From Dehalococcoidia bacterium (GTDB lineage Bacteria; Chloroflexota; Dehalococcoidia; GIF9; JBFMDU01): DNA of 64,000 bases. Below the pieces are notes generated by a model that was not told the DNA's origin, searched no databases, and saw only the letters and a program-made list of their open reading frames with translations. Positions 16,043 through 30,368 of the stretch are shown piece by piece (position 1 is the first letter of the stretch; each line of letters opens with the position of its first letter). The translations under genes and the position numbers were made by a program. The stretch spans positions 2,132 through 66,131 of the forward strand of contig DAOUCU010000059.1 in assembly GCA_034431935.1 (NCBI GenBank). Direction: 5' to 3'.

Positions 16043-16855
16043 ATGGGGAGTGCTGTAGTGGAACCAATTAGAGTAGTTGTCAACGGAGCTTTGGGTCGCA
16101 TGGGGAAGGAGGTGATGTGGGGGTTGTCCCGGGATCCGGGGATTGAGATTGTCGGCGCGGCTGAGAAGCAGGTGACCCAGATGCGCCTGCCGCTCCCGGA
16201 AAAGTCGGAGTCGGTGCCGTTCTCATCGAATCTGGGTGCACTTCTTGATAGTGTGCGCCCCGATGTCCTGATCGACTTTACCACGTATGAGGCGTGCATG
16301 GCTGCGGCCCGTATTTCCCTTTCGCATGGAGTAAATATAGTGGTGGGCACCACCGGGCTTGCCCCGGCGGATTTGCAAGAAATAGAAGAACTTGCAATTA
16401 AGAACAAGGTAGGCGCAGTTGTCGCGGCCAACTTTTCCATCGGGGCAGTTCTTCTTCAGCACTACTGCAAACTGGCGGCAAAATGGTTTGACCATGCTGA
16501 GATAATTGAGTTGCACCACAACGAAAAGGCCGACGCGCCGTCCGGTACAGCTCTGTCCACTGCCAGAATGATGGTTGAAGGGAAGGGGGGTAAGTTCGCC
16601 TACTCGCCAACGAAAAAGGAGACCCTCGGCAACGTCCGGGGCGGCCAGGTCGACGGCATCGCGATTCACAGTGTGCGTTTGCCAGGCTTCATGGCCAGTC
16701 AGGAAGTCATCTTTGGAACGCTCGGGCAAAGGCTGGTTCTGCGTCACGACGCAATTAACCGAGAGTGCTACATCCCCGGTGTTACCATGGCCGTCAAGGA
16801 GGTGGTCAAGAGGAAGGGTCTGGTGAACGGTCTGGACAAACTGCTTAACTTGTGA
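16043..16855 (+). CDS. dapB: 4-hydroxy-tetrahydrodipicolinate reductase
   Basis: RVVVNGALGRMG NAD(P)-binding N-terminus and the EIIELHHNEKADAPSGTA signature. AGGAAG lies 8 nt upstream. Confidence 0.9.
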   Translation: MGSAVVEPIRVVVNGALGRMGKEVMWGLSRDPGIEIVGAAEKQVTQMRLPLPEKSESVPFSSNLGALLDSVRPDVLIDFTTYEACMAAARISLSHGVNIVVGTTGLAPADLQEIEELAIKNKVGAVVAANFSIGAVLLQHYCKLAAKWFDHAEIIELHHNEKADAPSGTALSTARMMVEGKGGKFAYSPTKKETLGNVRGGQVDGIAIHSVRLPGFMASQEVIFGTLGQRLVLRHDAINRECYIPGVTMAVKEVVKRKGLVNGLDKLLNL

Positions 16856-16871
16856 TTCTGCGGGAGGCATA

Positions 16872-17885
16872 ATGAAGAAGTACCGCGTTGCCGTGGTAGG
16901 GGCGACGGGCATGGTAGGGCAGGAGTTTGTCAAGATGCTCCAGCAGCGGAATTTTCCCCTGTCCTCCATCCAGCTTCTCGCATCCGATCGTTCTGTTGGC
17001 AAGAAGATGTTCGTCGGTCATAAGGACTTCATTGTTCGCGAGACCACCGCTGAGTCGTTCCGGTATGTTGACCTGACTCTTTTCTCCGCCGGACCTGAGG
17101 TTAGCCGGTATTTCGCACCGATTGCGGTGAGATCTGGTTCCATTGTTATCGATCACAGCGCGGCCTTCCGCATGGATACGACAGTGCCACTGGTTGTCCC
17201 GGAGATTAATCCTGATGATATCAGGAACCACAAGGGCATTATCGCTAATCCGGACTCGCCGACCACCCAGCTTGTGGTTGCCCTTTATCCTCTGCATAAG
17301 GTCAATCCAATAAAGCGCATTATTGTTACAACCTTCCAGTCGGTTTCCAGTACCGGCACCGCAGGTATGGAGGAATTGACCCTCCAGACCAAGCTGGTAC
17401 TCGAAGGGCATGCGGTCATTCCCCATGTGTATTCTCATCAGATAGCCTTTAACATCTTGCCTGAGATAGACGTTTTTATGGATGACGGCTACAATAAAGA
17501 GGAATGGCGTATTGCCGAGGAGACCCGCAAGATCCTGCGTTCTGACCAAATAGGTATATCTGCTACCTGTGTCCGTGTGCCTGTGTTTATGGGGCATAGT
17601 GAGTCGGTGAACGTTGAGTTCACCTATCCCATGGGTCCGGATGAGGCACGACAGATCCTTGCCCAGGCGCCGGGTGTCAAAGTGCTTGATGACCCCAGTG
17701 TCAGCCTGTATCCTCAGCCGTGGACAGCGGCCGGACTGGATGACGTGCTGGTCGGCAGGATTCGCAAAGACCCGTCGCATCCTAACGGCCTGGCGATGTG
17801 GATTGTAGCTGATAATCTGCGCAAAGGAGCGGCATTGAACGCCATCCAGATTGCTGAGGAGGCAATTCGAAGGGGTGTTCTCTAG
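16872..17885 (+). CDS. asd: Aspartate-semialdehyde dehydrogenase
   Basis: RVAVVGATGMVGQE N-terminus, a QSVSSTG active-site Cys-to-Ser variant region, 337 aa. Confidence 0.9.
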   Translation: MKKYRVAVVGATGMVGQEFVKMLQQRNFPLSSIQLLASDRSVGKKMFVGHKDFIVRETTAESFRYVDLTLFSAGPEVSRYFAPIAVRSGSIVIDHSAAFRMDTTVPLVVPEINPDDIRNHKGIIANPDSPTTQLVVALYPLHKVNPIKRIIVTTFQSVSSTGTAGMEELTLQTKLVLEGHAVIPHVYSHQIAFNILPEIDVFMDDGYNKEEWRIAEETRKILRSDQIGISATCVRVPVFMGHSESVNVEFTYPMGPDEARQILAQAPGVKVLDDPSVSLYPQPWTAAGLDDVLVGRIRKDPSHPNGLAMWIVADNLRKGAALNAIQIAEEAIRRGVL

Positions 17886-17952
17886 CCTCATGATTCCAGT
17901 CGCATACTCTGTCTCAGTACCAAGTCACACGATGATGTTCAAGGAGTAGGCT

Positions 17953-18843
17953 GTGGCTGAAATCGGTCGGTTGCTGACAGCAATGGTCACGCCTTTCGAC
18001 GCCGCAGGCAAAGTCAACTATGAAAAGGCCAAGAAGCTGGCCGTGGCTTTGTTGAAGTCTGGAAGTGACGGCCTGGTGGTTGCCGGTACAACTGGCGAAT
18101 CACCAACTTTGACCCACGAAGAGAAACTGAGGTTGTTTTCGGAAATCAGGTCGGTGGTAGACAAACCGGCGGCGGTCATTGCGGGGACCGGCAATAACGA
18201 TACGGCCGAAAGTATCCGGTTTACCATGGAGGTGGAGAAGACTGGCGTTGATGCCGTTCTTCTGGTGGTACCTTATTACAACCGTCCGACTCAGGACGGC
18301 CTTTACCTGCACTTTAAATCGATTGCCGACGCTACTAGATTGCCGTGCATTCTCTACAACGTGCCGGGACGTACTGTCACCAGCCTATCTTCTGAGACGG
18401 TTGTCAAATTGAGTCAGATTCCCAACATCATCGGGATTAAAGAGGCCAGTGCCAATTTGGAACAGATTGCTAGGATAATCGACGGTGCGCGTAAGGGCTT
18501 CCTCGTCTGGAGCGGTAACGACGCCGACACTCTGCCGATTATGGCAATCGGCGGTTACGGCGTTATCGCTGTGGCCTCACACCTGGTGGGCAACCAGATT
18601 AAAGACATGATTAACCTCGTGCTTGCAGGCAAAGTGACTGAGGCGGCGGTGATCCATAGAAGGCTTCTACCGCTGGTTAATGCGCTGTTTGTCATACCTA
18701 ATCCTATGCCGATTAAATACGCACTTGGTGTTGTCGGCTTCGACGTCGGCAAGCCACGCCTACCGTTGACAGAGCCGGATGAAAAGTCGGCCGGTGTTAT
18801 CAGGAGTGCTCTCAGGAACTGCCAGATTGACCTTCTAATCTAG
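17953..18843 (+). CDS. dapA: 4-hydroxy-tetrahydrodipicolinate synthase
   Basis: GTG start with AAGGAG 6 nt upstream. Motifs TAMVTPF, VVAGTTGESPTLT and YNVPGRT, 296 aa. Confidence 0.9.
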   Translation: MAEIGRLLTAMVTPFDAAGKVNYEKAKKLAVALLKSGSDGLVVAGTTGESPTLTHEEKLRLFSEIRSVVDKPAAVIAGTGNNDTAESIRFTMEVEKTGVDAVLLVVPYYNRPTQDGLYLHFKSIADATRLPCILYNVPGRTVTSLSSETVVKLSQIPNIIGIKEASANLEQIARIIDGARKGFLVWSGNDADTLPIMAIGGYGVIAVASHLVGNQIKDMINLVLAGKVTEAAVIHRRLLPLVNALFVIPNPMPIKYALGVVGFDVGKPRLPLTEPDEKSAGVIRSALRNCQIDLLI

Positions 18844-18885: not shown

Positions 18886-21078
18886 ATGAGCGAGATTATC
18901 CTCACAATCGACGGGGTGGAAGTGAAAGGAAAAGAAGGGTCTACCGTGCTTCAGGCATCCCGGGACGCCGGCATCTACATCCCGGCATTGTGTTCGCATC
19001 CCGATTTGAAGTCCATGGGACAGTGCCGACTATGTGTGGTAGAGATCGAAGGCGCCTCGGAGCCGATGCTGGCTTGCCAGACCCAGGTTGCCTCCGGAAT
19101 GGCGGTGGTCACGAACTCAGAAACAGTGAAGAAGCGAAGACAGGAGAATCTGAGGGATATTCTGCTGACTCATCCTCACGCCTGCCTTGACTGCTGGAGA
19201 CGTGAGCGTTGTAAACCGTTTGATATCTGCCTGCGTAACGTGACTATTACTGAGCGATGCGTTACCTGTGAGAAGAACGGCCACTGCGAATTGCAGATGG
19301 TGGCCGATTTTATCGGCGTGCTACCGGAGATACCTTACACGCCCAAAAAGGAACCGGTCCGGGTTGAGAGTCCGTTCTTCATTCGTGACTACAATCTGTG
19401 TATTCTTTGCGGCAGATGTGTCCGTGTTTGTCGTGATGTGCGCGGCGTCGGCGTCTATGCCTTTGATAACGAAGAGAAACCGACCAGAGTGCTGACGGTG
19501 AAGGATGATTCGGTACTCGAGTCCGGATGTCGGTCGTGCATGGCCTGCGTCGAAGTCTGTCCTACAGGGGCCCTGATGGACCGGCGTAAGGAGAAGCTCT
19601 GGGACGACCGTCAGGCATTCGTAGTGCCGTGCAAGCACGCCTGTCCGGCCCACATCAATATCCCCCGTTATGTCACCTTGTGCGGTGCCGGTAAGTATGC
19701 CGAAGCCCTCGCGGTGATCCGGGAGAAGGTACCGTTCCCGGGGTCACTTGGCCGGGTGTGTATTCACCCATGTGAAGAAGCCTGCCGCCGCGGCGAGTTG
19801 AACTCACCCATTTCCATCAAGGAGCTGAAGCGCATTGCCGCCGACCGCGGGGGAGATAACTGGAAGGTCAAATCGAGGAAGCTGGCTGCGACCGGCAGGA
19901 AAGTTGCTGTAGTCGGCGCCGGACCGGCTGGTCTGACGGCGGCATACTATCTGGCGAAATGCGGCCATTCCGTTACCGTCTTTGAGGCTTTGCCAGAAGC
20001 CGGGGGAATGATGCGCGTGGGCATTCCTGAGTATCGTTTGCCAAGGAATGTTCTGGCTGACGAGGTGAGGGTAATTACGGACACCGGAGTGGAACTGAAG
20101 ACGAATACCAGGGTAGAGTCGGTTGACGAGCTTATGTCCAAGGGTTTTGAGGCTGTTCTGCTGGCGGTAGGCGCCCATCGCGGCACCAAGATGCGGGTGC
20201 CCGGCGAAGAATTGCCGGGCGTTATGGATGGGGCCACTTTTCTCAGGGAAGTGAATCTTGGCAGGAAAGTGAATGTCGGGAACAAAGTCGCGGTTATCGG
20301 CGGCGGCAACTCGGCGATTGACAGTGCCCGTGTGGCGCTGAGGGCCGGTGCCAGGGAGGTGGTGATGATCTACCGGCGGACACGCGCTGAGATGCCGGCG
20401 GCCCCCGAAGAGATTGAGGACGCTTTGCATGAGGGAATCAAGATTGAATTCCTGGCGGCGCCAAATAAGATTGTCCAGAAAGACGGCCGGCTCAGCCTTG
20501 AGTGTATCCGTATGAGGCTGGGCAGACCTGACGCCAGCGGGCGGCGTTCTCCGGAACCGATACCAGGGAGCGAGTATTCCGTGGAGTACGACACCATCAT
20601 CGCGTCTATCGGCCAGGCTCCGGATGTGCCCCAGGGATTCGGCGTCAAGACCGGCCGGGGCAATGTCATAGCGGCCGATGAAAAGACACTTGAGACCAGC
20701 CGCAGGGGAGTGTTCGCCGCCGGTGACACGGTTACCGGTCCGGCTTCGGTAATAGAGGCCATTGCCGCCGGCCGCTTGGCGGCTGTCTCCATCGATAAGT
20801 ACCTTGGTGGTAAGGGTGTGATTGAAGAGTCGCTGGCCCCGGTCGAGCCTGTAAGCAGGTGGCTGGGTAAAGACGACGGCTTCAGTGAGAAGAAGCGTGA
20901 GGAAGGCGCTCTGCTGGCTCCGGCTGCCCGTGTCGGGAGTTTTATCGAGTGTAAAGCGGCCTTAACCGACGAACAGGCAAGGCGCGAGGGCAACCGCTGT
21001 CTTCGTTGCGATCTGAGATTGACTATATGTCCCGCGCCGATGCCTCCGGCACGGAAGGAGTCACCGGTCTTAGCCTAG
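18886..21078 (+). CDS. Fusion protein: NuoG/HydA-type N-terminal Fe-S module ([2Fe-2S], His-ligated and two [4Fe-4S]) joined to a GltD/NfnB-like FAD/NAD(P)H oxidoreductase
   Basis: 730 aa. The N-terminal Cys patterns (CSHPDLKSMGQCRLC...C; HPHACLDCWRRERC; CILCGRCVRVC; CRSCMACVEVCP) are followed by GltD-type clusters (CKHACPAHINIP...CIHPCEEACRRG) and by FAD (VAVVGAGPAGLTAAYYL) and NAD(P)H (VAVIGGGNSAIDSAR) dinucleotide folds. Confidence 0.8.
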   Translation: MSEIILTIDGVEVKGKEGSTVLQASRDAGIYIPALCSHPDLKSMGQCRLCVVEIEGASEPMLACQTQVASGMAVVTNSETVKKRRQENLRDILLTHPHACLDCWRRERCKPFDICLRNVTITERCVTCEKNGHCELQMVADFIGVLPEIPYTPKKEPVRVESPFFIRDYNLCILCGRCVRVCRDVRGVGVYAFDNEEKPTRVLTVKDDSVLESGCRSCMACVEVCPTGALMDRRKEKLWDDRQAFVVPCKHACPAHINIPRYVTLCGAGKYAEALAVIREKVPFPGSLGRVCIHPCEEACRRGELNSPISIKELKRIAADRGGDNWKVKSRKLAATGRKVAVVGAGPAGLTAAYYLAKCGHSVTVFEALPEAGGMMRVGIPEYRLPRNVLADEVRVITDTGVELKTNTRVESVDELMSKGFEAVLLAVGAHRGTKMRVPGEELPGVMDGATFLREVNLGRKVNVGNKVAVIGGGNSAIDSARVALRAGAREVVMIYRRTRAEMPAAPEEIEDALHEGIKIEFLAAPNKIVQKDGRLSLECIRMRLGRPDASGRRSPEPIPGSEYSVEYDTIIASIGQAPDVPQGFGVKTGRGNVIAADEKTLETSRRGVFAAGDTVTGPASVIEAIAAGRLAAVSIDKYLGGKGVIEESLAPVEPVSRWLGKDDGFSEKKREEGALLAPAARVGSFIECKAALTDEQARREGNRCLRCDLRLTICPAPMPPARKESPVLA

Positions 21079-21104
21079 ATTAGGGTGTAGTGTTCGTGTG
21101 TCAT

Positions 21105-21143
21105 AAAGGAGCGCTGTCGACCTTACCGGCGCTCCTTTTTTGC
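21105..21143 (+). terminator. Rho-independent terminator after the Fe-S/GltD fusion gene
   Basis: AAAGGAGCGC-(13-nt loop)-GCGCTCCTTTTTTGCG is a 10-bp GC-rich stem followed immediately by a T6 tract. Confidence 0.7.
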
Positions 21144-21169
21144 GTCCGTTATTTATATTGTCGATGCCT

Positions 21170-21198
21170 GTTGACCGAAGCGGGATTGTGTGATTAAA
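21170..21198 (+). promoter_or_regulatory. Putative promoter of the nuoE-nuoF-fdhA-nfnAB operon
   Basis: -35 TTGACC (21170-21175), a 17-bp spacer, and an extended -10 TGaTTAAAT (21190-21198). This leaves a leader of about 110 nt to the nuoE-like start. Confidence 0.4.
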
Positions 21199-21314
21199 TA
21201 TCCGGGACATACGCGGTTTACTCTAAGTGATTTCACTATCTACCTGGGCCGCCCGAGCGCGGCTCATTTCTATGTACGGTGGCTCCGTTCCAAAGCTTGC
21301 CTGTTGGAGGTACC

Positions 21315-21764
21315 ATGGATGTTGAGCTAGCCAAATCGCTTGAGCCTTACCGCAACCAGAAGGGTGCCCTGATCACCGTGCTTCAGAAGGTTCAGGAAAA
21401 GTACGGCTACCTGCCAAAGGATTTGTTGTCTGAGGTTGCCAAACTCTGCCGTACCTCCGTGAGTGACGTATTTGGAGTGGCCTCATTCTACGCACAGTTC
21501 TATTTCTCTCCCAGAGGGCGTCATACAATAAAGTGCTGTGTGGGAACTGCCTGCCACGTTCGTGGTGGTCAGCGTATTCTGGAAAGTGTGGAGAGAGAAC
21601 TGGAGACGAAGGCTGGTGGTACAACCCCGGATGGCAGATTCTCGGTGGAGAAAGTGGCTTGTTTCGGTTCTTGTGCGCTGGGGCCAGTAATCGTTATTGA
21701 CCGCAATGTTTACGGCCGCATGACACCAACTAAGGTTAAGGGTGCTCTGGAGAATTATCGTTAA
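21315..21764 (+). CDS. NuoE/FdsG/HoxE-like thioredoxin-fold [2Fe-2S] subunit
   Basis: CxxxxC...CxxxC arrangement (CCVGTACHVRGG ... CFGSCALGP). GGAGG lies 4 nt upstream of the ATG at 21315. An in-frame upstream ATG exists at 21279. Confidence 0.8.
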   Translation: MDVELAKSLEPYRNQKGALITVLQKVQEKYGYLPKDLLSEVAKLCRTSVSDVFGVASFYAQFYFSPRGRHTIKCCVGTACHVRGGQRILESVERELETKAGGTTPDGRFSVEKVACFGSCALGPVIVIDRNVYGRMTPTKVKGALENYR

Positions 21765-21777
21765 GGTGCGGTGAGAC

Positions 21778-24700
21778 ATGACCTTCGAAGAGTTAAAGTC
21801 ACGAGCTTTGGCTGAATGGCAGAGCTGGCACGACAGCCCAAAAGTACGTATCCTCGTGGGTACAGCTACGTGCGGCAAGGCCGCCGGTGCCGACAGTGTT
21901 GTAAAGGCTATTAGAGAGGAGCTGGCAAATCGGCACGTGGACGCAATTGTAACCGGGGTTGGTTGCATAGGCCTGTGCTATTTGGAGCCGATAGTAGATA
22001 TCATCAAGCCGGGTCAGCCCCGCATCGCGTACGGAAATGTCACGCCGGAGATTGCCGTTGAATTAGTGCGTGACTACGTCGTCGGAGACAATCCTCGTCG
22101 GGACTTGGCGCTGGGGACTATTGGAGAAGGTTCAGTCCAAGGAATACCCCGGCTTTTCGATACTCCGGTTCTCAAGCACCAGGTTCGGCTAGTCTTACGC
22201 AATTGCGGTTTTATCGACCCTGAAAGTATTAGTCACTATATTGCCAATGGTGGCTACTCAGGCTTTGTCAGGGCTCTCGGTATGAAGGCCGATCAGGTGA
22301 TTGACGAACTAAAGAAATCGGGGTTGAGGGGACGTGGTGGTGCCGGTTTTCCTACGTGGCAGAAGTGGGAATTCTGCCGCAGGTCACCCGGCACCCCAAA
22401 GTATGTCATTTGTAATGCCGATGAGGGTGACCCGGGGGCATTTATGAACCGCTCGCTACTGGAGGGCGACCCCCACGCCTTGTTAGAGGGCATGTTGATC
22501 GGCGGCTATGCGATTGGTGCTAGTCATGGCTACATATACTGCCGCGCTGAATACCCCCTGGCTTTGGAGCGCCTGCGCCTTGCGATTAGCCAGATGGGAA
22601 AGTGCGGTTTGATCGGCGATAACATTCTGGGCTCTGGCTTCAGCTTCGATATTACGATTAAGGAGGGTGCCGGAGCCTTTGTTTGTGGTGAAGAGACTGC
22701 TTTGATGGCCTCAATCGAAGGCAAGCGGGGTATGCCGCGTCCCCGTCCGCCCTTCCCGGCGGTCTCGGGTCTATGGGGTAAGCCAACGAATATCAATAAC
22801 GTTGAGACCTGGGCCGATGTTGCCCTGATACTTCAAAGAGGTGCCGACTTTTATGCTGGTTATGGTGTTCCTTCATGCAGGGGTACTAAGACCTTCTCGC
22901 TTGTGGGTAAGGTTGAGCGCACGGGGTTAATCGAAATCCCGTTTGGCATGACGCTGAGAAAAGTAATATATGACATCGGCGGCGGTATTCTGAAAGGAAA
23001 GAAATTCAAAGCAGTTCAGACCGGTGGTCCATCGGGGGGATGTTTGCCTCCTGCGGTGCTTGATATGCCGATTGATTACGAGTCCTTGACTGCCGCCGGG
23101 TCAATTATGGGGTCGGGTGGGATGATTGTGATGGATGAAGGGACATGTGTTGTCGACCTGGCCAAATACTTTCTTAATTTTGTTCAGGCCGAATCGTGCG
23201 GCAAGTGCGTGCCGTGCCGTGTGGGGACGCGGCAGATGCTGTCAGTCTTGACCCGGATAACCAGTGGCCAGGGTCGGGTGGGTGACATCGAACTGCTAGA
23301 AAAACTGGCCAGCACCGTCAAGAATGGCTCGCTCTGCGGTCTTGGCCAGACAGCTCCGAACCCGGTGCTAACCACGCTTAAGTATTTTCGCGAGGAGTAC
23401 GAAGAGCACATCAAGAAGCATCACTGCCGCGCGGCGGTATGCAAGGGGCTGGTTGAGGCGCCGTGCAGTCATACCTGCCCTGCCGGTATCGATGTACCGA
23501 GGTACATACGGTTTATCGAACAGGGCGAGTTTGGTGAGTCTTGCGCCACTATCCGTGAGAAGGTGCCGTTCCCCGGTGTGCTGGGCAGGGTCTGTTTCCA
23601 TCCATGTGAATCGAGATGCCGGCGCGGCCAGCTCGAACAGCCTGTTGCTATCAAGGAACTTAAGCGGCTTGCGGCTGATTTCGATAGCGGCGTCTGGAAG
23701 AAGCGGTTGACGCCAACCAAGCCGACAGGGAAAAGGGTGGCGGTAGTCGGCTCCGGTCCGGCCGGTCTGACCGCGGCTTACTATCTGGCCCGGCTGGGGC
23801 ATGAGGTGACTGTTTTTGAGGCATTGCCTCATGCCGGCGGCATGATGCGAGTTGGTATTCCTGAGTACAGGTTGCCCCGTAAAGTGTTGGATGGTGAAAT
23901 TGATGACATTCTCAGCATGGGCGTCACTATTAAAACGAATACGAAAGTGGCTTCACTGGATGTCCTCAAGGCTGATGGGTTTCAGGCGGTATTCGTGGCT
24001 GTCGGTGCCCACCGTGGTCAAAAGATTGGTATACCCGGAGAAGGAAGCTCCGGTGTCATGGAGGGTGTGGAGTTTCTGAGGTGCATCAGCCTTGGTGGAA
24101 AAGTGGTGGTGGGGGAGCGCGTAGCGGTTATCGGCGGCGGTAATGTTGCTATCGATGCCGCGCGCACCGCTCTGAGATTGGGTGCTAAGGATGTCTTGAT
24201 CCTTTATCGCCGTACCGAGGCGGAGATGCCGGCGGCACCAGAGGAAATCGAAGGTGCACGGCAGGAAGGAGTCAAGATAGTCTTTCTTGTAGCACCGCAC
24301 CGCATAGAGAAAAGGGATGGTAAGCTGGTTCTGGAAATGTTGCGGATGACACTCGGGGACAAGGCTGATGCCAGAGGTCGAAGACAGCCGGTAGCCGTTG
24401 ATGGTAGCCAGTTCTCGGAAGAGTTTGATACGGTAATTGTGGCCATTGGTCAGGTCCCCGATGTTCCCGCAAATTTCGGACTACCATCGGGTGACGGCGG
24501 CGTTATCAAAGTTGACCCGGATACGCTGGCGACTGTGAAGCCGGGAGTATTCTCCGGTGGTGACTGTGTCAGCGGTCCGGCTTCTGTGATTGAGGCAATA
24601 GCCGCCGGCCGCCAGGCTGCGGTCTCGATCGACCAATTCCTCGGCGGTAAAGGGAACATCGAAGAGAAATTGGCTCGTGAGGAGACGATAACCCCGCCGG

Positions 24701-24861
24701 AAATAGAAGAGGGAGAGGCCTACCGTCCCAAAATGCGTCATGCAAGCATGATTAGGCGCTGTGCCAGCTTCACCGAGGTAGATATTGGTCTCACTAGAAA
24801 AGCCGGAGTAAAGGAAACAAAGCGATGCCTTCGGTGCGACCTCGAGCCGAGGGAGGAGTAG
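21778..24861 (+). CDS. NuoF/FdsB-like NAD(H)/FMN subunit with an N-terminal thioredoxin-like [2Fe-2S] domain, fused C-terminally to a GltD/NfnB-like FAD/NAD(P)H oxidoreductase
   Basis: 1027 aa. FMN motif GRGGAGFPTWQKW, NADH site CNADEGDPGAF, N3 cluster ESCGKCVPCRVG...CGLGQ, then GltD-type Cys clusters (CSHTCPAGIDVP...CFHPCESRCRRG) and two dinucleotide folds (VAVVGSGPAGLTAAYYL, VAVIGGGNVAIDAAR). Confidence 0.85.
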   Translation: MTFEELKSRALAEWQSWHDSPKVRILVGTATCGKAAGADSVVKAIREELANRHVDAIVTGVGCIGLCYLEPIVDIIKPGQPRIAYGNVTPEIAVELVRDYVVGDNPRRDLALGTIGEGSVQGIPRLFDTPVLKHQVRLVLRNCGFIDPESISHYIANGGYSGFVRALGMKADQVIDELKKSGLRGRGGAGFPTWQKWEFCRRSPGTPKYVICNADEGDPGAFMNRSLLEGDPHALLEGMLIGGYAIGASHGYIYCRAEYPLALERLRLAISQMGKCGLIGDNILGSGFSFDITIKEGAGAFVCGEETALMASIEGKRGMPRPRPPFPAVSGLWGKPTNINNVETWADVALILQRGADFYAGYGVPSCRGTKTFSLVGKVERTGLIEIPFGMTLRKVIYDIGGGILKGKKFKAVQTGGPSGGCLPPAVLDMPIDYESLTAAGSIMGSGGMIVMDEGTCVVDLAKYFLNFVQAESCGKCVPCRVGTRQMLSVLTRITSGQGRVGDIELLEKLASTVKNGSLCGLGQTAPNPVLTTLKYFREEYEEHIKKHHCRAAVCKGLVEAPCSHTCPAGIDVPRYIRFIEQGEFGESCATIREKVPFPGVLGRVCFHPCESRCRRGQLEQPVAIKELKRLAADFDSGVWKKRLTPTKPTGKRVAVVGSGPAGLTAAYYLARLGHEVTVFEALPHAGGMMRVGIPEYRLPRKVLDGEIDDILSMGVTIKTNTKVASLDVLKADGFQAVFVAVGAHRGQKIGIPGEGSSGVMEGVEFLRCISLGGKVVVGERVAVIGGGNVAIDAARTALRLGAKDVLILYRRTEAEMPAAPEEIEGARQEGVKIVFLVAPHRIEKRDGKLVLEMLRMTLGDKADARGRRQPVAVDGSQFSEEFDTVIVAIGQVPDVPANFGLPSGDGGVIKVDPDTLATVKPGVFSGGDCVSGPASVIEAIAAGRQAAVSIDQFLGGKGNIEEKLAREETITPPEIEEGEAYRPKMRHASMIRRCASFTEVDIGLTRKAGVKETKRCLRCDLEPREE

Positions 24862-24863
24862 AG

Positions 24864-27539
24864 ATGACGACGAATGTCACTCTTACCATAGATGGCAGGG
24901 CAGTCTCTGTTCCACCGGGAGTAACCGTCCTGGAGGCGGCACGTAAGGCTGGCGTTTACATACCGACCCTCTGTCACCATGAGGCGTTAGACCCCTACGG
25001 CGGTTGCCGTATGTGTATCGTCGAAATTGAAGGTATGCGTGGCTTCCCTACCTCGTGTTCGACGCCCGTGGCCGATAAAATGGTGGTCAGGACCAGCACA
25101 ACCCAGATTCAGGAACTGAGGCGCAATATCTTCGAGCTGGTCCTTAGCGAGCACCCTTTCCAGTGCACGTCCTGTGTCAAGAATATGCGCTGTGAACTTC
25201 AACAGGTGGCTGCCCATATCGGGCTGGACAGAGTTTCTCTGCCGTCTGCAGTCAAGGACCTGCCGGTGCTTACTGATAGTGCTTTCTTTGACCGCGATTA
25301 CAAGCTGTGTATTCTCTGCGGCCGCTGTGTGCGTATGTGTCAGGAAGTGCGTGGCGCCGCCGCTATCGCTTTTACTTACAGGGGTGGTGATTCGCTGGTA
25401 GGCACTGCATTCGGGCAGACCCTTCAGGATGCCGAATGCCAGTTCTGCGGCGCCTGTGTTGACGTTTGTCCCACCGGCGCCCTGATGGACCGTGCTCTCA
25501 AGCCGGTCCGCTCGGTTGACCGCCGCGTCATTACCACCTGTCCTTACTGCGGAGTCGGCTGTCAGCTTCTTCTTTCGGTCAAGGACGGGAAGATAGTCTA
25601 TTCGGAAGCCGCACCCGGCATGTCGCCCAACAATGGACAGTTATGCGTCAAGGGCAAATACGGTATTCAAGAGTTCGTGCACCATCCGGAGCGTCTGGCC
25701 AGACCACTAATCCGTAAGGGCGGCAGGCTGGTCGAAAGCACCTGGGACGAGGCGCTTTCGTTGGTCGCATCCAGGCTATCACAATACAGGGGTGACCAGT
25801 TCGGTTTCGTCTCTTCGGCCAAGTGTACCAACGAGGAGAACTACGTGGGGCAGAAATTCGCTCGTCTGGTCATGGGCACCAACAACGTCGACCATTGCGC
25901 CCGGCTGTGTCACGCCTCGACCGTGGCTGGTCTAGCACAGGCCTTTGGTAGTGGTGCTATGACAAATCCCATCGGAGAAATCGCTGATGCCGGCTGTATC
26001 GTGGTCATCGGCAGTAACACCACGGAAGCTCACCCGGTGATCGGCCTCGAGGTCAAGCGCGCGGTGCGGCGTGGTGCTAAACTCATCGTGATTAATCCAC
26101 TTGAAATTGCTCTCTGCCGCAGGGCTGATATCTGGCTCAGACACAGACCGGGCAGTGACGTAGCCCTTGTTATGGGCATGGCCCGGGTTATTCTGGAGCA
26201 GGGTTTGGCCGATATGGACTTCGTCAATCAGCGCTGTGAAAACTTTGATGAGTTTAAAGAATCGCTGGGGGAATACGACCTTGATACAGTTGAAAGGCTG
26301 ACCGGTGTCAGCCGAGAAAATATCGTCGAAGCCGCCCGGACGTATGCCACCTTCAAACCGGCGGCTATTCTTTACACAATGGGCATAACACAGAGCAGCC
26401 ACGGCACCGATAATGTCCTCGCCATCGCCAACCTTGCCATGCTCACGGGCAATCTCGGCAGGTCTTCCAGCGGGGTTAATCCACTGCGCGGGCAGAATAA
26501 TGTCCAGGGTGCCTGCGATATGGGTGCTTTGCCTAACGTCTATCCGGGTTATCAGTCGGTTGCCGACCCGGCAATTGCTGCTAAGTTCGAAGCCGCTTGG
26601 GGCGGTAAGATGAACACCAAACCAGGGCTGACCATGACCGAGATGGTCGGCGCCATTGACCGCGGTGAAATGAGGGCTTTATATGTCATGGGCGAGAACC
26701 CGGTGCTGGCCGATGCTGATGCCAATCATGTTATTAAGGCTCTTGAGAAGCTGGAATTCCTTGTAGCTCAGGACATCTTTCTGACTGAGACCAGTCGGCT
26801 GGCCCATGTGGTACTCCCGGCGGCCAGCTTTGCCGAGAAAGATGGTACTTTTACCAACACCGAGCGCCGTGTCCAGCGTGTTCGTAAGGCGGTCGAGCCA
26901 CCGGGAGAGGCTTTGCCTGACTGGAGGATTGTCTGTAATGTAGCGTCCAGAATGGGGGCGAGCGGGTTCGCCTATTTGACTGCGGAAGAGATTATGAAAG
27001 AGATTGCTGCCTTGACACCGAGCTACGGAGGTATTACCTACGAGCGTCTGGAAAGTTGCGGGTTGCACTGGCCGTGTCCCATGATAGACCATCCCGGGAC
27101 GCCGGTCCTGCACCGGACAACCTTCAGCCGCGGCAAGGGTAGATTCTTCCCGCTCAAGTACCGTCCGCCGGCAGAGTTGCCGGACGCGGACTATCCACTG
27201 GTTCTAACTACAGGACGCTCTCTATTCCACTATCATACCGGCACTATGACTAGGAAGGTAGCGGGGCTTAACCAGATTGAGCCGGGCGGCACCGTTGAAA
27301 TCAATCCGGTTGATGCTGAAAGTCTTGGCATCGCTGATGGCGAGACGGTGAGAGTGAGTTCGCGGCGCGGCGCGGTCATGACCAAGGCAAAGGTGACCGA
27401 AGCTGTGGCCCCCGGAGTGGTCTTCATGGCGTTCCATTTTGCCGAGAGTCCGGCCAATGTGCTGACAAATGCGGCGCTTGACCCGGTGTGCAAGATACCG
27501 GAGTTCAAGGTATCCGCAGTAAGGATAGAAAAGGCTTAA
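24864..27539 (+). CDS. fdhA: Formate dehydrogenase catalytic subunit (FdsA/FdhF-like), Cys-type, with a NuoG-like N-terminal Fe-S domain
   Basis: Start at ATG 24864 with GGGAGGAG upstream, 2 nt after the previous stop. It has the Mo/W-bisPGD fold and a 4Fe-4S site CPYCGVGC...C. The catalytic motif NNVDHCARLCHAS aligns with FdhF RVUHGPS with Cys replacing Sec, and the Arg motif PLRGQNNVQGACDMGALPN is present. Confidence 0.9.
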   Translation: MTTNVTLTIDGRAVSVPPGVTVLEAARKAGVYIPTLCHHEALDPYGGCRMCIVEIEGMRGFPTSCSTPVADKMVVRTSTTQIQELRRNIFELVLSEHPFQCTSCVKNMRCELQQVAAHIGLDRVSLPSAVKDLPVLTDSAFFDRDYKLCILCGRCVRMCQEVRGAAAIAFTYRGGDSLVGTAFGQTLQDAECQFCGACVDVCPTGALMDRALKPVRSVDRRVITTCPYCGVGCQLLLSVKDGKIVYSEAAPGMSPNNGQLCVKGKYGIQEFVHHPERLARPLIRKGGRLVESTWDEALSLVASRLSQYRGDQFGFVSSAKCTNEENYVGQKFARLVMGTNNVDHCARLCHASTVAGLAQAFGSGAMTNPIGEIADAGCIVVIGSNTTEAHPVIGLEVKRAVRRGAKLIVINPLEIALCRRADIWLRHRPGSDVALVMGMARVILEQGLADMDFVNQRCENFDEFKESLGEYDLDTVERLTGVSRENIVEAARTYATFKPAAILYTMGITQSSHGTDNVLAIANLAMLTGNLGRSSSGVNPLRGQNNVQGACDMGALPNVYPGYQSVADPAIAAKFEAAWGGKMNTKPGLTMTEMVGAIDRGEMRALYVMGENPVLADADANHVIKALEKLEFLVAQDIFLTETSRLAHVVLPAASFAEKDGTFTNTERRVQRVRKAVEPPGEALPDWRIVCNVASRMGASGFAYLTAEEIMKEIAALTPSYGGITYERLESCGLHWPCPMIDHPGTPVLHRTTFSRGKGRFFPLKYRPPAELPDADYPLVLTTGRSLFHYHTGTMTRKVAGLNQIEPGGTVEINPVDAESLGIADGETVRVSSRRGAVMTKAKVTEAVAPGVVFMAFHFAESPANVLTNAALDPVCKIPEFKVSAVRIEKA

Positions 27540-27552
27540 AGGAGGCCTGCTG

Positions 27553-28410
27553 ATGTACCGGATTGTAGCCAAGGAGACGCTGGTCCCAAGCATCCAGTTG
27601 ATGAAAATAGACGCTCCGGCGGTGAGCCGCAAAGGCAGGGCTGGCCAGTTCGTCATTGTCCGCACCCACGAGCGCGGCGAGCGGATTCCTCTGACTATTG
27701 CCGATATGGACCCCAAAGAAGGGACGGTGACCATTGTTTTTCAGGAGGTCGGCAAGAGCACTCGCGAGCTGGCCATGTTTAAAGCCGGGGACTTAATTAA
27801 GGACTTCGTCGGCCCGCTGGGCATTCCAACTCATGTTGATAAAGTCGGCACTGTCGTTTGCGTCGCTGGCGGCGTTGGAGTGGCTCCCATCGCCCCCATT
27901 GCCCGGGCCTTTAAGCAGGCGGGCAACAGGGTGATTACCATCATGGGCGCGCGGAGCAAGAACCTGCTTTTCTGGGAAGACCGACTGAAGGCCGTCAGTG
28001 ACGAGTTGATTGTAACTACCGATGATGGCACCTACGGCCGCAAGGGCGTCGTCACCGTTCCTCTGAAAGAGGTGCTGGAGCGGCCTGAAAAAATAGCCGA
28101 GGTCATTGCTATCGGTCCGGTGGTGATGATGAAGTTCTGCTGTGTGACCACCAGGCCGTTCAACGTCAAGACCATCGTCAGCCTCAACTCGCTGATGCTT
28201 GATGGTACCGGTATGTGCGGCTGTTGCCGTGTTTCTGCTGGCGGTCAGACCAAGTTCGTCTGCGTTGACGGCCCGGATTTCGATGGTCACACTATCGACT
28301 GGGACATCTTCCAGGCACGCCAACAGATATATCTTGACGAAGAAAAGCAGGCGTTGCAGGAGTGGGAAAGGTGTGGGTGTGTCAGCGCCGCTCAGAAAGC
28401 GAGGGCTTAA
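27553..28410 (+). CDS. nfnA: NfnA/SudB/PyrK-like FAD/NAD(P)H oxidoreductase subunit with a C-terminal [2Fe-2S]
   Basis: 285 aa. AAAGGAGG lies 8 nt upstream. It has a ferredoxin-NADP reductase fold (GQFVIVR...RIPLTIAD; VVCVAGGVGVAPI) and a C-terminal Cys cluster MCGCCRVS...CVDGP. Confidence 0.8.
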   Translation: MYRIVAKETLVPSIQLMKIDAPAVSRKGRAGQFVIVRTHERGERIPLTIADMDPKEGTVTIVFQEVGKSTRELAMFKAGDLIKDFVGPLGIPTHVDKVGTVVCVAGGVGVAPIAPIARAFKQAGNRVITIMGARSKNLLFWEDRLKAVSDELIVTTDDGTYGRKGVVTVPLKEVLERPEKIAEVIAIGPVVMMKFCCVTTRPFNVKTIVSLNSLMLDGTGMCGCCRVSAGGQTKFVCVDGPDFDGHTIDWDIFQARQQIYLDEEKQALQEWERCGCVSAAQKARA

Positions 28411-28413
28411 GCC

Positions 28414-29852: not shown

Positions 29853-30368
29853 CTAACCCGTCAGTGTTTTTGCTATCTCCGTCGCCCACTTATCTATTGC
29901 ATCCCACTTGCGGAAGTCGCCGGCCTGTGCCTTGACCCGGCCCGTCATGAATTTCTCCAGGAAATTCAGTCTCTTAGTATCAATCAACCCGTGGAAAATG
30001 GCGATATCATTGGGGTGTATCCGTTCGATAGCCGGTTTCAGCCTTCCCGGATATTTCCAGCCGCTCACTAATTCCACCGCATCGCCTTCGCCCGTTGGAC
30101 CGCTGGAAAATATCCATACCTGACGTTCGGTTAACAGCTTTTCATTCCGGATGACGAACTTGACCGCCTCCCTGCGCCACTGCCCGATGTAAACGGCGCT
30201 GCCCATGATTATCGCCCGGTAATGGGAAAGGTCGCTTGCCCGGTTGAAAGGCAGGACATCCACTTCCAGCCCTGCCTTACGTAGCACCTGTCCTATCTTG
30301 TTAGCGATCTCCGCCGTTGCGCCGTACTTGGAAGCAAACGCCACCAGAACCCTGTTCTCAATCTGCAT
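29853..30368 (-). CDS. Flavodoxin-domain protein (long-chain flavodoxin-like, HemG-like architecture)
   Basis: 171 aa. Flavodoxin-like phosphate-binding N-terminus VLVAFASKYGATAEIA and IMGSAVYIGQW. Confidence 0.55.
   Translation of the reverse strand: MQIENRVLVAFASKYGATAEIANKIGQVLRKAGLEVDVLPFNRASDLSHYRAIIMGSAVYIGQWRREAVKFVIRNEKLLTERQVWIFSSGPTGEGDAVELVSGWKYPGRLKPAIERIHPNDIAIFHGLIDTKRLNFLEKFMTGRVKAQAGDFRKWDAIDKWATEIAKTLTG

What the first reader, a model, noticed from the sequence alone, without database searches (positions are those of the whole stretch)
18886..21198. NuoG/HydA-type N-terminal Fe-S module fused to a GltD-like oxidoreductase, set apart from the Fdh operon by a canonical terminator and a promoter
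The 730-aa protein carries the same four-cluster N-terminal module found at the N-terminus of FdhA (24864-27539), but attached to an NAD(P)H:FAD module instead of a Mo-bisPGD domain. It is followed by a textbook rho-independent terminator (21105-21143, stem plus T6). A TTGACC-17 bp-TGaTTAAAT promoter (21170-21198) then precedes the nuoE-like gene. It may be an alternative electron-input subunit of the downstream complex or an independent NAD(P)H:ferredoxin-type enzyme, possibly co-transcribed with dapB-asd-dapA.
Basis: seen in the sequence. Interest (0 to 1): 0.5.

Follow-up and report, generated by a model that had tools for sequence, protein, structure and literature searches.

The report
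Stand-alone NADPH flavoprotein with iron-sulfur wire
This gene encodes a 79-kDa protein that joins an NADPH/FAD module to a chain of about seven iron-sulfur clusters; it is a rearranged, shortened relative of the NADPH-binding subunit of known electron-bifurcating transhydrogenases, and here it is transcribed apart from the neighbouring formate dehydrogenase operon.

Summary
ORF 18886-21078 (730 aa) joins a NuoG/HydA-type N-terminal Fe-S module to a GltD-like FAD/NADP(H) module. A strong hairpin plus T-run (21105-21143) follows it and is the only such terminator in the 64 kb. The hairpin and a TTGACC-17-TTAAAT promoter are both conserved in a related genome.

Two corrections. The N-terminal module is not identical to FdhA's: it has a 25-residue insertion with four invariant extra cysteines, probably a fifth cluster. 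The GltD part is the permuted type found in NfnA/StnC of Bfu-type transhydrogenases, but the domain order differs and the Fdh-like C-terminal domain is missing.

In Dehalococcoidia the family occurs four ways: as the third gene of nuoE-nuoF clusters, directly after fdhA, fused to an active Sec/Cys formate dehydrogenase domain, or alone. The target's own clade is mostly alone. The downstream NuoF carries its own fused GltD.

Best reading: an independently transcribed NADP(H)-to-iron-sulfur oxidoreductase that exchanges electrons with ferredoxin, or with a partner encoded elsewhere. It is a new variant of a known kind, of moderate interest.

The parts
16043..18843 (+). dapB (16043-16855), asd (16872-17885) and dapA (17953-18843): the probable upstream genes of the same transcription unit
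   Evidence: Pfam DapB_N/DapB_C, Semialdhyde_dh/dhC and DHDPS. Gaps are 16, 67 and 42 nt with no terminator-like hairpin between them. L001 has the same order.
18886..21078 (+). Target gene: 730-aa, 79.2-kDa Fe-S flavoprotein (NuoG/HydA-type N-terminal module plus permuted GltD/NfnL-type FAD-NADP(H) module)
18892..19119 (+). [2Fe-2S] ferredoxin-like domain (residues 3-78; ligands C36, C47, C50, C64)
   Evidence: Pfam Fer2_4, 5.3e-19. The four Cys are invariant.
19171..19287 (+). His-ligated [4Fe-4S] motif region with a 25-residue, 4-Cys insertion (H96, C100, C103, C109, C115, C125, C128, C134). Predicted to bind two clusters instead of one.
   Evidence: The gap in the alignment to FdhA. The family alignment. 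All eight ligands are invariant. No counterpart in any PDB sequence. AF2 pLDDT is below 50 for residues 102-126.
19384..19575 (+). 2x[4Fe-4S] ferredoxin-like domain (residues 167-230; C172, C175, C178, C182 and C215, C218, C221, C225)
   Evidence: Pfam Fer4_7 and Fer4_Nqo3. The Cys are invariant.
19627..19848 (+). GltD/DPD-type helical Fe-S domain (residues 248-321; C249, C253, C292, C296, C300). It lacks the usual N-terminal Cys motif.
   Evidence: Pfam Fer4_20 matches profile positions 31-107 only. The Cys are invariant.
19900..20772 (+). FAD-binding and NADP(H)-binding Rossmann domains (residues 339-629; GAGPAG at 344, GGGNSA at 472, YRRTR at 496-500)
   Evidence: Pfam Pyr_redox_2, 2.9e-33. 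Motifs. GxGxxA is read as an NADP(H) motif in StnC (PMC7483475).
20995..21012 (+). C-terminal RCLRCD motif (C705, C708). This is the displaced Cys pair of the GltD cluster, as in NfnA/StnC.
   Evidence: Aligned to SRCLEC at the end of the NfnL-like domain of 9bov_A. Invariant. Also present in the NuoF-fused GltD.
21105..21143 (+). Rho-independent terminator: 12-bp stem, 10-nt loop, T6
21171..21199 (+). Promoter-like site: -35 TTGACC (21171-21176), 17-nt spacer, TG (21191-21192), -10 TTAAAT (21194-21199)
   Evidence: Sequence. Conserved as a footprint in L001. Not significant on its own.
21245..21266 (+). Conserved GC-rich hairpin in the presumed 5' leader of nuoE
   Evidence: Listed by the terminator scan. 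The 21245-21275 block is 94% identical to L001. No Rfam family matches.
21315..21764 (+). NuoE/HydC-like [2Fe-2S] subunit: first gene of the downstream operon (context)
   Evidence: Pfam 2Fe-2S_thioredx, 4.6e-48. NCBIfam NuoE. GGAGG lies 5 nt upstream of the ATG.
21778..24861 (+). NuoF-like FMN subunit fused to a second GltD module (1027 aa). It has no C-terminal 2x[4Fe-4S] ferredoxin domain (context).
24864..27539 (+). FdhA: canonical NuoG-type N-terminus (no insertion) plus a Mo/W-bisPGD domain with Cys in the active-site motif CARLCHASTVAGL (context)
   Evidence: (TIGR01591, 863 bits against a cut-off of 666)
27553..29808 (+). Canonical NfnA-like (27553-28410) and NfnB-like (28414-29808) pair (context)

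Best explanation
The gene encodes a soluble NADP(H)-linked iron-sulfur flavoprotein.

Proposed electron path: NADPH donates a hydride to FAD in the GltD/NfnL-type domain. Single electrons then pass through the two GltD-type [4Fe-4S] clusters into a NuoG/HydA-type wire. That wire consists of 2x[4Fe-4S], a His-ligated [4Fe-4S], one extra predicted cluster from the 4-Cys insertion, and a [2Fe-2S]. The flow can also run in reverse, from a low-potential donor to NADP+.

The FAD is most likely not a bifurcating site. Its GltD part belongs to the NfnA/StnC lineage, in which that FAD only feeds a linear wire.

In this genome the gene is transcribed with dapB-asd-dapA, stopped by its own terminator, and separate from the nuoE / nuoF-gltD / fdhA / nfnAB operon. 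I therefore read it as a self-standing NADP(H):ferredoxin-type oxidoreductase. The exposed N-terminal clusters would serve as the docking port, as in monomeric CpI-type hydrogenases. It is probably not an obligate subunit of the neighbouring complex.

Shown: the architecture, the ligands, the terminator, the conservation and the gene contexts. Inferred: cofactor occupancy, NADP specificity, direction of electron flow and the identity of the partner.
For: Architecture and ligands.

The GltD part is closest to NfnA of Caldicellulosiruptor (9bov_A, 2.2e-147), StnC (8oh5_C, 4.6e-129) and Thermococcus NfnA (9n5u_A, 6.2e-125). NfnB of NfnAB scores only 1.6e-81. The match includes the displaced C-terminal Cys pair. 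Foldseek gives the same three top matches.

In Stn the FAD feeds a linear pathway and has lost bifurcation (PMC10482914). GxGxxA plus the invariant YRRTR indicate NADP(H) (PMC7483475).

Separate transcription unit: a unique, conserved terminator with a compensatory change, a conserved promoter footprint, and a 236-nt gap.

The target's own clade (61-67% identity) sits in unrelated neighbourhoods in L002, L004, L006, L081-L086, L088 and L089. Some members lie beside nfnAB only (L005, L087).

The downstream NuoF already has its own GltD, 58% identical to the target's. NuoF-GltD is followed by an insertion-less FdhA in 4 of 4 loci.

In CpI the homologous cluster domain is the predicted ferredoxin docking site (PMC9499530).
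Against: Sister clades of the same family are clearly subunits or fusions. They are the third gene of nuoE-bfuB clusters (10 loci), lie immediately after fdhA (5 loci), or are fused to an active Sec/Cys FDH domain (more than 30 loci).

Within the target's clade, three members (window, L001, L011) lie directly upstream of nuoE-nuoF-fdhA in the same orientation. L011 has no recognisable terminator between them.

Absence of an adjacent partner gene does not exclude a partner encoded elsewhere. The invariant insertion suggests a specific docking or electron-transfer function that is still unexplained.

NADPH-to-ferredoxin electron flow is uphill, so a non-bifurcating enzyme would be useful mainly in the ferredoxin-to-NADP+ direction.

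There are no biochemical or transcript data.
Confidence: 0.5

Rival explanations
1. The protein is a detachable NADP(H) arm (a BfuA-type or FDH beta-type subunit) of the neighbouring Fdh-NuoEF complex. It docks through its NuoG-type N-terminus, for example at the His-cluster interface that joins two HydA protomers in HydABC. This would couple formate oxidation or CO2 reduction to NADP(H).
For: Family contexts: nuoE-bfuB-T clusters, fdhA-T pairs with gaps of 0-85 nt, and T fused to active FDH domains. The order T > nuoE > nuoF > fdhA is conserved in window, L001 and L011, and L011 lacks a terminator. JGI names close homologues 'formate dehydrogenase (NADP+) beta subunit'. The Moorella NADP-dependent FDH is an alpha2beta2 enzyme with a 76-kDa Fe-S/NADP-binding beta subunit (PMC13040438, PMC5736913). 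The His-ligated clusters of two HydA protomers lie 9 A apart (PMC9499530).
Against: A conserved terminator and promoter lie between the genes. The downstream NuoF already carries a GltD module. The window's FdhA lacks the insertion that accompanies T-FdhA pairs elsewhere. Most members of the target's clade have no Fdh or NuoEF genes nearby.
Confidence: 0.33
2. The protein is the catalytic BfuA subunit of a compact Nfn-Bfu transhydrogenase (NADH-dependent ferredoxin:NADP+ oxidoreductase). It would use the downstream NuoE/NuoF as the bifurcating core, as an alternative to FdhA.
For: Ten Dehalococcoidia loci have nuoE-bfuB-T three-gene clusters with a canonical BfuB that has a C-terminal 2x[4Fe-4S] domain. 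NfnA and StnC are the top sequence and fold matches.
Against: The window's NuoF has lost the C-terminal ferredoxin-like domain of BfuB and carries GltD in its place, so the canonical core is absent here. The T proteins of those three-gene clusters form a different clade without the insertion. A canonical nfnAB pair is already present in the locus. The target lacks the Fdh-like domain that helps anchor NfnC in known structures (PMC11829005).
Confidence: 0.1
3. The protein is an ordinary glutamate synthase small subunit or an NfnB/SudA paralogue, and the N-terminal Fe-S domains have no special role.
For: GltD, gltA and NfnB families give strong partial hits. Some sources name homologues 'NADPH-dependent glutamate synthase beta subunit-like oxidoreductase'.
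Against: No NCBIfam model reaches its cut-off. PRK12814 scores 541 bits against 916. TIGR01317 and TIGR01318 score 222 and 257 bits against 448 and 483. There is no GltB gene in the window. The Cys motif is permuted as in NfnA/StnC. All N-terminal cluster ligands are invariant. A separate canonical NfnAB is encoded 6 kb downstream.
Confidence: 0.03

Closest known systems
NfnA / StnC, the NADPH-binding BfuA subunit of Bfu-type (Stn) transhydrogenases (PDB 9BOV/9BP5, 8OH5/8OH9, 9N5U/9N5V)
   Same: Best sequence and fold matches. Shared features: an N-terminal [2Fe-2S] domain; an NfnL/GltD-type FAD-NADP(H) domain with two [4Fe-4S] clusters whose Cys pair is displaced to the C-terminal end; and a 2x[4Fe-4S] ferredoxin-like domain. 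The predicted role is to feed NADPH electrons into a linear Fe-S wire.
   Different: Domain order differs. In NfnA/StnC the GltD domain is inserted straight after the [2Fe-2S] domain (residues 103-567) and the dicluster domain follows (601-675). Here the whole NuoG-type module comes first and GltD is C-terminal. The target lacks the 500-residue inactive Fdh-like domain that mediates tetramerisation and anchors NfnC (PMC11829005, PMC10482914). It has an extra 4-Cys insertion at the His-cluster. It is not in one operon with a canonical BfuBC.
Beta subunit of the NADP-dependent formate dehydrogenase of Moorella thermoacetica (FdhB / SfrB2, 76 kDa) and SfrB of Geobacter sulfurreducens
   Same: Similar size (79 against 76 kDa) and similar content of Fe-S plus a GltD-like NADP-binding module. 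The gene is associated with fdhA in many relatives. JGI names close homologues after this KEGG family (PMC13040438, PMC5736913, PMC7483475).
   Different: I could not obtain the Moorella or Geobacter sequences, so orthology and N-terminal architecture are untested. In Moorella the beta gene directly precedes the alpha gene. Here nuoE, nuoF-gltD, a terminator and a promoter lie in between.
F-domain of monomeric [FeFe]-hydrogenase CpI, and HydA of HydABC / NuoG N-terminus
   Same: The same succession of [2Fe-2S], H-x3-C-x2-C-x5-C [4Fe-4S] and 2x[4Fe-4S]. In CpI this module is the ferredoxin docking and entry wire. In HydABC the His-cluster links two protomers (PMC9499530).
   Different: The H-cluster domain is replaced by GltD. 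The His-cluster loop carries a 25-residue 4-Cys insertion that is absent from all solved structures.
NfnB of NfnAB / SudA / GltD
   Same: Same fold for the FAD/NADPH domains (TM-score 0.78 normalised to the target, rmsd 2.2 A, to 5jca_L), at about 40% identity.
   Different: The Cys motif is permuted. There is no NfnA-type partner fused or adjacent. In NfnB the FAD is the bifurcating site, and this property is lost in the NfnA/StnC lineage to which the target's GltD belongs (PMC10482914).

Membership tests
Nfn-Bfu BfuA (NfnA/StnC) | NfnL/GltD-type FAD-NADP(H) domain with two [4Fe-4S] clusters, of the permuted type | tested here: met
   Residues 248-709 align to NfnA residues 103-567, E=3e-124 for that stretch, including RCLRCD. 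Pfam Fer4_20 and Pyr_redox_2. Foldseek top matches.
Nfn-Bfu BfuA (NfnA/StnC) | GltD inserted between the [2Fe-2S] NTD and the rest of the NuoG-like part | tested here: not met
   The order here is 2Fe-2S, His-cluster, 2x4Fe-4S, GltD.
Nfn-Bfu BfuA (NfnA/StnC) | C-terminal Fdh/NuoG-like (molybdopterin-fold, inactive) domain | tested here: not met
   The protein ends 20 residues after the GltD Cys pair. No Molybdopterin Pfam hit. 730 aa against 953-1178 aa.
Nfn-Bfu BfuA (NfnA/StnC) | Encoded in one operon with BfuC (NuoE-like) and a BfuB that has the C-terminal 2x[4Fe-4S] domain | tested here: not met
   nuoE and nuoF follow, but behind a conserved terminator and promoter. The window's NuoF has GltD in place of the C-terminal ferredoxin domain.
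Nfn-Bfu BfuA (NfnA/StnC) | NAD+-dependent reduction of ferredoxin by NADPH (bifurcation) in the ABC complex | not testable with these tools
   Needs purified proteins.
NADP-dependent FDH beta subunit (Moorella FdhB/SfrB2, KEGG fdhB) | Fe-S plus NADP-binding GltD-like protein of about 76 kDa | tested here: met
   79.2 kDa. Domains. NADP motifs.
NADP-dependent FDH beta subunit (Moorella FdhB/SfrB2, KEGG fdhB) | Gene adjacent to, and co-transcribed with, the catalytic fdhA | tested here: inconclusive
   fdhA is 3.8 kb downstream, behind a terminator, a promoter, nuoE and nuoF-gltD. Relatives in L008, L010, L013, L024 and L029 are directly adjacent to fdhA.
NADP-dependent FDH beta subunit (Moorella FdhB/SfrB2, KEGG fdhB) | Sequence orthology to Moth_2314 / GSU0510 | not tested
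   The reference sequences could not be retrieved. Only JGI product names of homologues point to this family. A search for Moth_2314 in the paper library found nothing.
Glutamate synthase small subunit (GltD) | Reaches the curated family score, with a GltB large-subunit partner | tested here: not met
   TIGR01317 scores 222 bits against 448 and TIGR01318 scores 257 against 483. No GltB gene in the window.
NfnB of NfnAB | Canonical N-terminal Cys motif of the Fer4_20 domain, with an adjacent NfnA (PyrK-like) partner | tested here: not met
   The Fer4_20 match starts at profile position 31. TIGR01316 scores 300 bits against 472. The genuine nfnAB pair is at 27553-29808.
NuoG/HydA N-terminal Fe-S module | [2Fe-2S] Cys4, then H-x3-C-x2-C-x5-C, then two CxxCxxCxxxC motifs | tested here: met
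   An additional 25-residue 4-Cys insertion is present.

The most novel reading that the evidence does not exclude
The invariant 4-Cys insertion may bind an extra [4Fe-4S] cluster that extends the His-cluster 'Y-junction' outwards. That would create a dedicated electrical plug through which this protein couples to insertion-bearing FdhA proteins, to a second copy of itself, or to another partner. The Dehalococcoidia set of free, operon-linked and FDH-fused forms would then be the living intermediates from which the Stn/NfnABC transhydrogenases, with their dead Fdh domain, evolved. On this reading the locus would be part of a modular formate/NADH/NADPH/ferredoxin redox hub of a kind not yet described biochemically.
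Probability: 0.2. Interest if true: 0.65.

Novelty: new variant of a known kind. Interest (0 to 1): 0.4.

Why it matters
Dehalococcoidia are abundant in anoxic subsurface sediments and live close to the thermodynamic limit, so how they connect the formate, NADH, NADPH and ferredoxin pools is central to their energy budget.

This protein family has thousands of members in public data (7,999 at E<=1e-20 among the 8,000 candidates scored) and is annotated only generically. It shows that the NADPH module of Bfu-type transhydrogenases exists in a simpler, non-inserted arrangement.

It also occurs free, in operons and fused to active formate dehydrogenases. That gives a natural series for testing how Bfu enzymes were assembled from modules.

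The conserved extra Cys insertion at the His-ligated cluster is a concrete, testable candidate for a new inter-protein electron port.

For this window alone the result is modest: a correctly spotted gene and transcription boundary, with a function inferred by homology.

Tried and rejected
- NCBIfam naming: no model reaches its cut-off for the target.
- Rfam search of the intergenic region, looking for example for a Moco riboswitch: only a sub-threshold chance hit.
- PDB sequence search with the insertion region alone: only the canonical CxxCx5CELQ part matches, so there is no structural precedent.
- Literature search for Moth_2314: no hit.
- An early tblastn used an out-of-frame NuoE query and gave a spurious 38% identity to L001. 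The corrected value is 68%.
- The generic promoter scan does not list the proposed promoter and shows such matches are near chance. Only the conservation footprint supports it.
- Glutamate synthase, DPD and NfnB readings were rejected (see membership tests).
- Pseudogene or artefact was rejected. The ORF is intact, orthologues are 91-96% identical and the ligands are invariant.
Full report
**1. The observation**

The ORF at 18886-21078 (+) is intact, starts with ATG behind a GGGAG Shine-Dalgarno sequence, and encodes 730 aa (79.2 kDa).

Pfam finds these domains:
- a [2Fe-2S] Fer2_4 domain at residues 3-78;
- part of the NuoG His-cluster motif at 124-145;
- a 2x[4Fe-4S] dicluster/Fer4_Nqo3 domain at 167-230;
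- the GltD/DPD helical Fe-S domain Fer4_20 at 248-321;
- the FAD/NAD(P) Pyr_redox_2 domain at 339-629.

The rest of the window is housekeeping: mutS, arg genes, tRNA synthetases, recG, fusA and others. It holds no second FDH.

**2. The N-terminal module is not the same as FdhA's**

The N-terminal module is homologous to that of FdhA: 41% identity over 233 residues, E=2e-55. The alignment has a single 25-residue gap.

In the target the canonical H-x3-C-x2-C-x5-C motif is expanded to H96-x3-C100-x2-C103-x5-C109-x5-C115-x9-C125-x2-C128-x5-C134.

All eight of these residues, all the other cluster ligands, and the motif Y496-R-R-T-R are invariant in 46 homologues of 57-96% identity.

I infer that the insertion binds one additional cluster. 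The protein would then hold one [2Fe-2S], about six [4Fe-4S] and one FAD.

No PDB chain contains the insertion. AlphaFold2 models the protein well overall (pLDDT 89, pTM 0.86) but leaves residues 102-126 below pLDDT 50.

**3. The terminator, promoter and intergenic region**

The hairpin at 21105-21143 has a 12-bp stem, dG -21.2 kcal/mol and z=-4.1. In a stringent scan of both strands of the whole window it is the only hairpin with at least 9 perfect pairs followed by a T-run. Shuffles give 0-1.

The orthologous locus L001 is a Chloroflexota MAG whose protein is 91% identical to the target. It keeps the stem (83-92% identity), the T6 run, and one C:G to U:A double change, while the loop is only 30% identical.

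The proposed promoter is TTGACC (21171-21176), 17 nt, TG, then TTAAAT (21194-21199). It is weak by consensus and was not listed by the generic scan, which finds such sites at chance frequency.

However, the -35 block is 13/13 and the -10 block 16/18 identical in L001, against 30-33% in the adjacent spacers.

The 236-nt gap is the largest in the ten-gene run. I consider the transcription-unit boundary well supported by sequence and comparison, though not by transcript data.

A second conserved hairpin (21245-21266) lies in the presumed leader of nuoE. Rfam has no match for it.

**4. Closest known proteins**

By sequence, the best solved relatives are NfnA of Caldicellulosiruptor NfnABC (9bov_A, 2.2e-147), StnC of Sporomusa (8oh5_C, 4.6e-129) and Thermococcus NfnA (9n5u_A, 6.2e-125). 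These are far ahead of NfnB of NfnAB (1.6e-81). Foldseek gives the same order.

The target shares the permuted Cys arrangement of these proteins. The Fer4_20 match starts at profile position 31, and an RCLRCD pair sits at the C-terminal end of the module.

The domain order differs. NfnA/StnC have the [2Fe-2S] domain, then GltD (residues 103-567), then the dicluster (601-675), then an inactive Fdh-like domain. The target has the complete NuoG-type module first, GltD last, and no Fdh-like domain.

No NCBIfam model reaches its cut-off.

In StnC the FAD feeds a linear wire into the bifurcating StnAB core and is not itself bifurcating (PMC10482914). GxGxxA is read there as an NADP(H) motif (PMC7483475), and the target has GGGNSA at residue 472.

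**5. Family and genomic context**

The family is large: 7,999 proteins at E<=1e-20 among the 8,000 candidates scored. The best hits are 727-760 aa with the same architecture, mostly from Chloroflexota/Dehalococcoidia MAGs. JGI names some of them 'formate dehydrogenase (NADP+) beta subunit'.

A scan of one genome per GTDB species found 474 relatives, and 80 loci were fetched. Domain-level BLAST of all ORFs and a neighbour-joining tree separate four situations:
- (I) The target's clade: window, L001-L007, L011 and L042. Members are 730-748 aa and have the insertion.
- (II) nuoE-bfuB-T three-gene clusters with a canonical BfuB that has a C-terminal 2x[4Fe-4S] domain (for L001's version). Here T is 704-710 aa and lacks the insertion (L014, L016, L017, L019, L021, L022, L025-L027, L036).
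- (III) T immediately after fdhA, with gaps of 0-85 nt, usually behind nuoE-bfuB and sometimes followed by nfnAB (L008, L010, L013, L024, L029).
- (IV) T fused to a formate dehydrogenase catalytic domain in one chain of 1350-1400 aa, or split only by an in-frame TGA. This accounts for more than 30 loci.

In all 13 split cases the stop codon is TGA inside the motif CARL-U-HAPTVAGL. The unsplit cases have Cys at that position, so these are active-type Sec/Cys FDH domains.

**6. The target's own clade**

Clade I is mostly detached from these systems.
- L002, L004 and L006 are flanked by Dtd, Fur, CbiMNQO, a P-type ATPase, TfoX or a solute-binding protein.
- L081-L086 are flanked by a nitroreductase, a methyltransferase, TfoX, E1 dehydrogenase genes or a VapBC pair.
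- L088 is next to an OYE flavoenzyme gene. L089 is next to an aldehyde:ferredoxin oxidoreductase plus a polyferredoxin.
- L005, L087 and L090 lie beside nfnAB. L090 is also convergent with a fused FDH.

Only window, L001 and L011 have T upstream of nuoE-nuoF-fdhA. In L011 the T reading frame is broken, and no terminator is recognisable in the roughly 120-nt gap.

**7. The downstream operon**

The window's NuoF-like protein (1027 aa) is fused to a second GltD module that is 58% identical to the target's. It lacks the C-terminal ferredoxin-like domain of BfuB.

In L001 the NuoF protein is 73% identical up to residue 560 and then carries the canonical 2x[4Fe-4S] domain. NuoE is 68% identical. T, FdhA and NfnA are 87-92% identical.

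NuoF-GltD fusions recur in L010, L055 and L065. In all four loci, counting the window, the fusion is followed by an FdhA with the canonical His-cluster motif. In contrast, FdhA proteins that carry the insertion are in 5 of 7 cases immediately followed by a T that also has the insertion.

L010 shows both sets side by side: nuoE / nuoF-gltD / fdhA (canonical), then fdhA (insertion, Sec) and T (insertion).

This suggests that NuoE / NuoF-GltD / FdhA is a self-contained unit with its own NADP(H) module. It also suggests that the insertion marks a T-FdhA pairing for which the window has no FdhA partner in view. These counts are not phylogenetically independent.

**8. Mechanism**

Shown: the domains, the ligands, the homology to NfnA/StnC, the transcription boundary and the contexts.

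Inferred: NADP(H) binds at the second Rossmann fold. FAD exchanges a hydride with it and passes single electrons through the two GltD clusters into the NuoG-type wire.

The homologous wire in CpI is the ferredoxin entry route. In HydABC its His-ligated cluster links two protomers at 9 A (PMC9499530).

My preferred reading (confidence 0.5) has three elements:
- The protein works as an independently expressed NADP(H):ferredoxin-type oxidoreductase.
- It probably runs from a low-potential donor towards NADP+.
- It is transcribed with the NADPH-consuming dapB-asd-dapA genes.

Rival readings:
- It docks on the neighbouring Fdh-NuoEF complex as an FDH-beta-like or BfuA-like arm (0.33). The family-level contexts and the Moorella NADP-FDH precedent support this (76-kDa beta subunit; PMC13040438, PMC5736913).
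- It forms a compact Nfn-Bfu with NuoEF (0.1). This is weakened by the missing BfuB ferredoxin domain.
- It is a plain GltD or NfnB paralogue (0.03). This is effectively excluded.

**9. Novelty and score**

The parts are all known, and the closest family (NfnA/StnC) is structurally characterised.

What is not described, as far as the papers I could search show, is:
- the non-inserted, Fdh-domain-less arrangement;
- the conserved 4-Cys insertion;
- the series of free, operon-linked and FDH-fused forms in Dehalococcoidia.

I rate it a new variant of a known kind, with interest 0.4.

Noticed in passing
window 21778-24861 (+); also L010 1449-4481, L055 14266-17301, L065 7694-10795: The NuoF-like FMN subunit is fused to a GltD/NfnL-type NADP(H) module (1010-1033 aa). 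The GltD replaces the C-terminal 2x[4Fe-4S] ferredoxin-like domain that defines bifurcating BfuB. The otherwise syntenic L001 has the canonical 636-aa BfuB. The fusion is followed by an insertion-less FdhA in all four loci, which suggests a formate/NAD/NADP enzyme without a ferredoxin site.
   Followed up: partly
L029 10001-14131, L032 9905-14116, L046 9983-14032, L064 9983-14032 and more than 25 others; Sec-split forms e.g. L035 9989-12460 + 12473-13587: Single polypeptides of about 1350-1400 aa combine the target-like Fe-S/GltD module with an active-type formate dehydrogenase domain (CARL[U/C]HAPTVAGL). All 13 interrupted cases are split by TGA. They may be single-chain NADPH-dependent CO2 reductases and active-Fdh counterparts of StnC/NfnA.
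   Followed up: partly
FdhA N-termini in L010 7216-8325, L011 5147-6262, L013 477-1586, L016 8446-11211, L024 3418-6243, L029 7188-9941 (L008 7238-9982 has a variant lacking one Cys): The same 25-residue 4-Cys insertion at the His-ligated cluster also occurs in some FdhA proteins. Those proteins are mostly immediately followed by a target-like protein that has the insertion. The window's FdhA lacks it.
   Followed up: partly
window 27553-29808; L005 7367-9635, L008 12213-14479, L024 8705-10349, L048 8665-10904, L087 3376-5614, L090 1556-3799: A canonical nfnA-nfnB pair recurs next to fdhA, next to target-like genes or next to the fused FDH. It lies either directly downstream or divergently upstream. 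This hints at a functional link beyond a free-standing transhydrogenase.
   Followed up: no
window 21245-21275: A GC-rich hairpin followed by UUUCUAUGU in the presumed 5' leader of nuoE is 94% identical in L001, while its flanks are 61-72% identical. No Rfam family matches. It could be an attenuator or a processing or stability element.
   Followed up: partly
window, whole 64 kb: Under stringent criteria (at least 9 perfect pairs, at least 5 GC, then T5 or more), the hairpin after the target gene is the only canonical intrinsic terminator on either strand. Such terminators therefore seem rare in this genome.
   Followed up: yes
window 29853-30368 (-); L001 20032-20547 (-): A 171-aa Flavodoxin_5-domain protein is encoded convergently just after nfnB, and it is conserved in L001. 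It might be a low-potential electron carrier or a HemG-like enzyme.
   Followed up: no
window 24825 vs 24864: The longest fdhA ORF starts at 24825 and overlaps nuoF-gltD by 37 nt.
   Followed up: yes
L011 504-2610: The target homologue in this MAG contig changes reading frame near its 3' end. The RCLRCD motif continues in another frame. This may be a sequencing or assembly frameshift, or a decaying gene.
   Followed up: no
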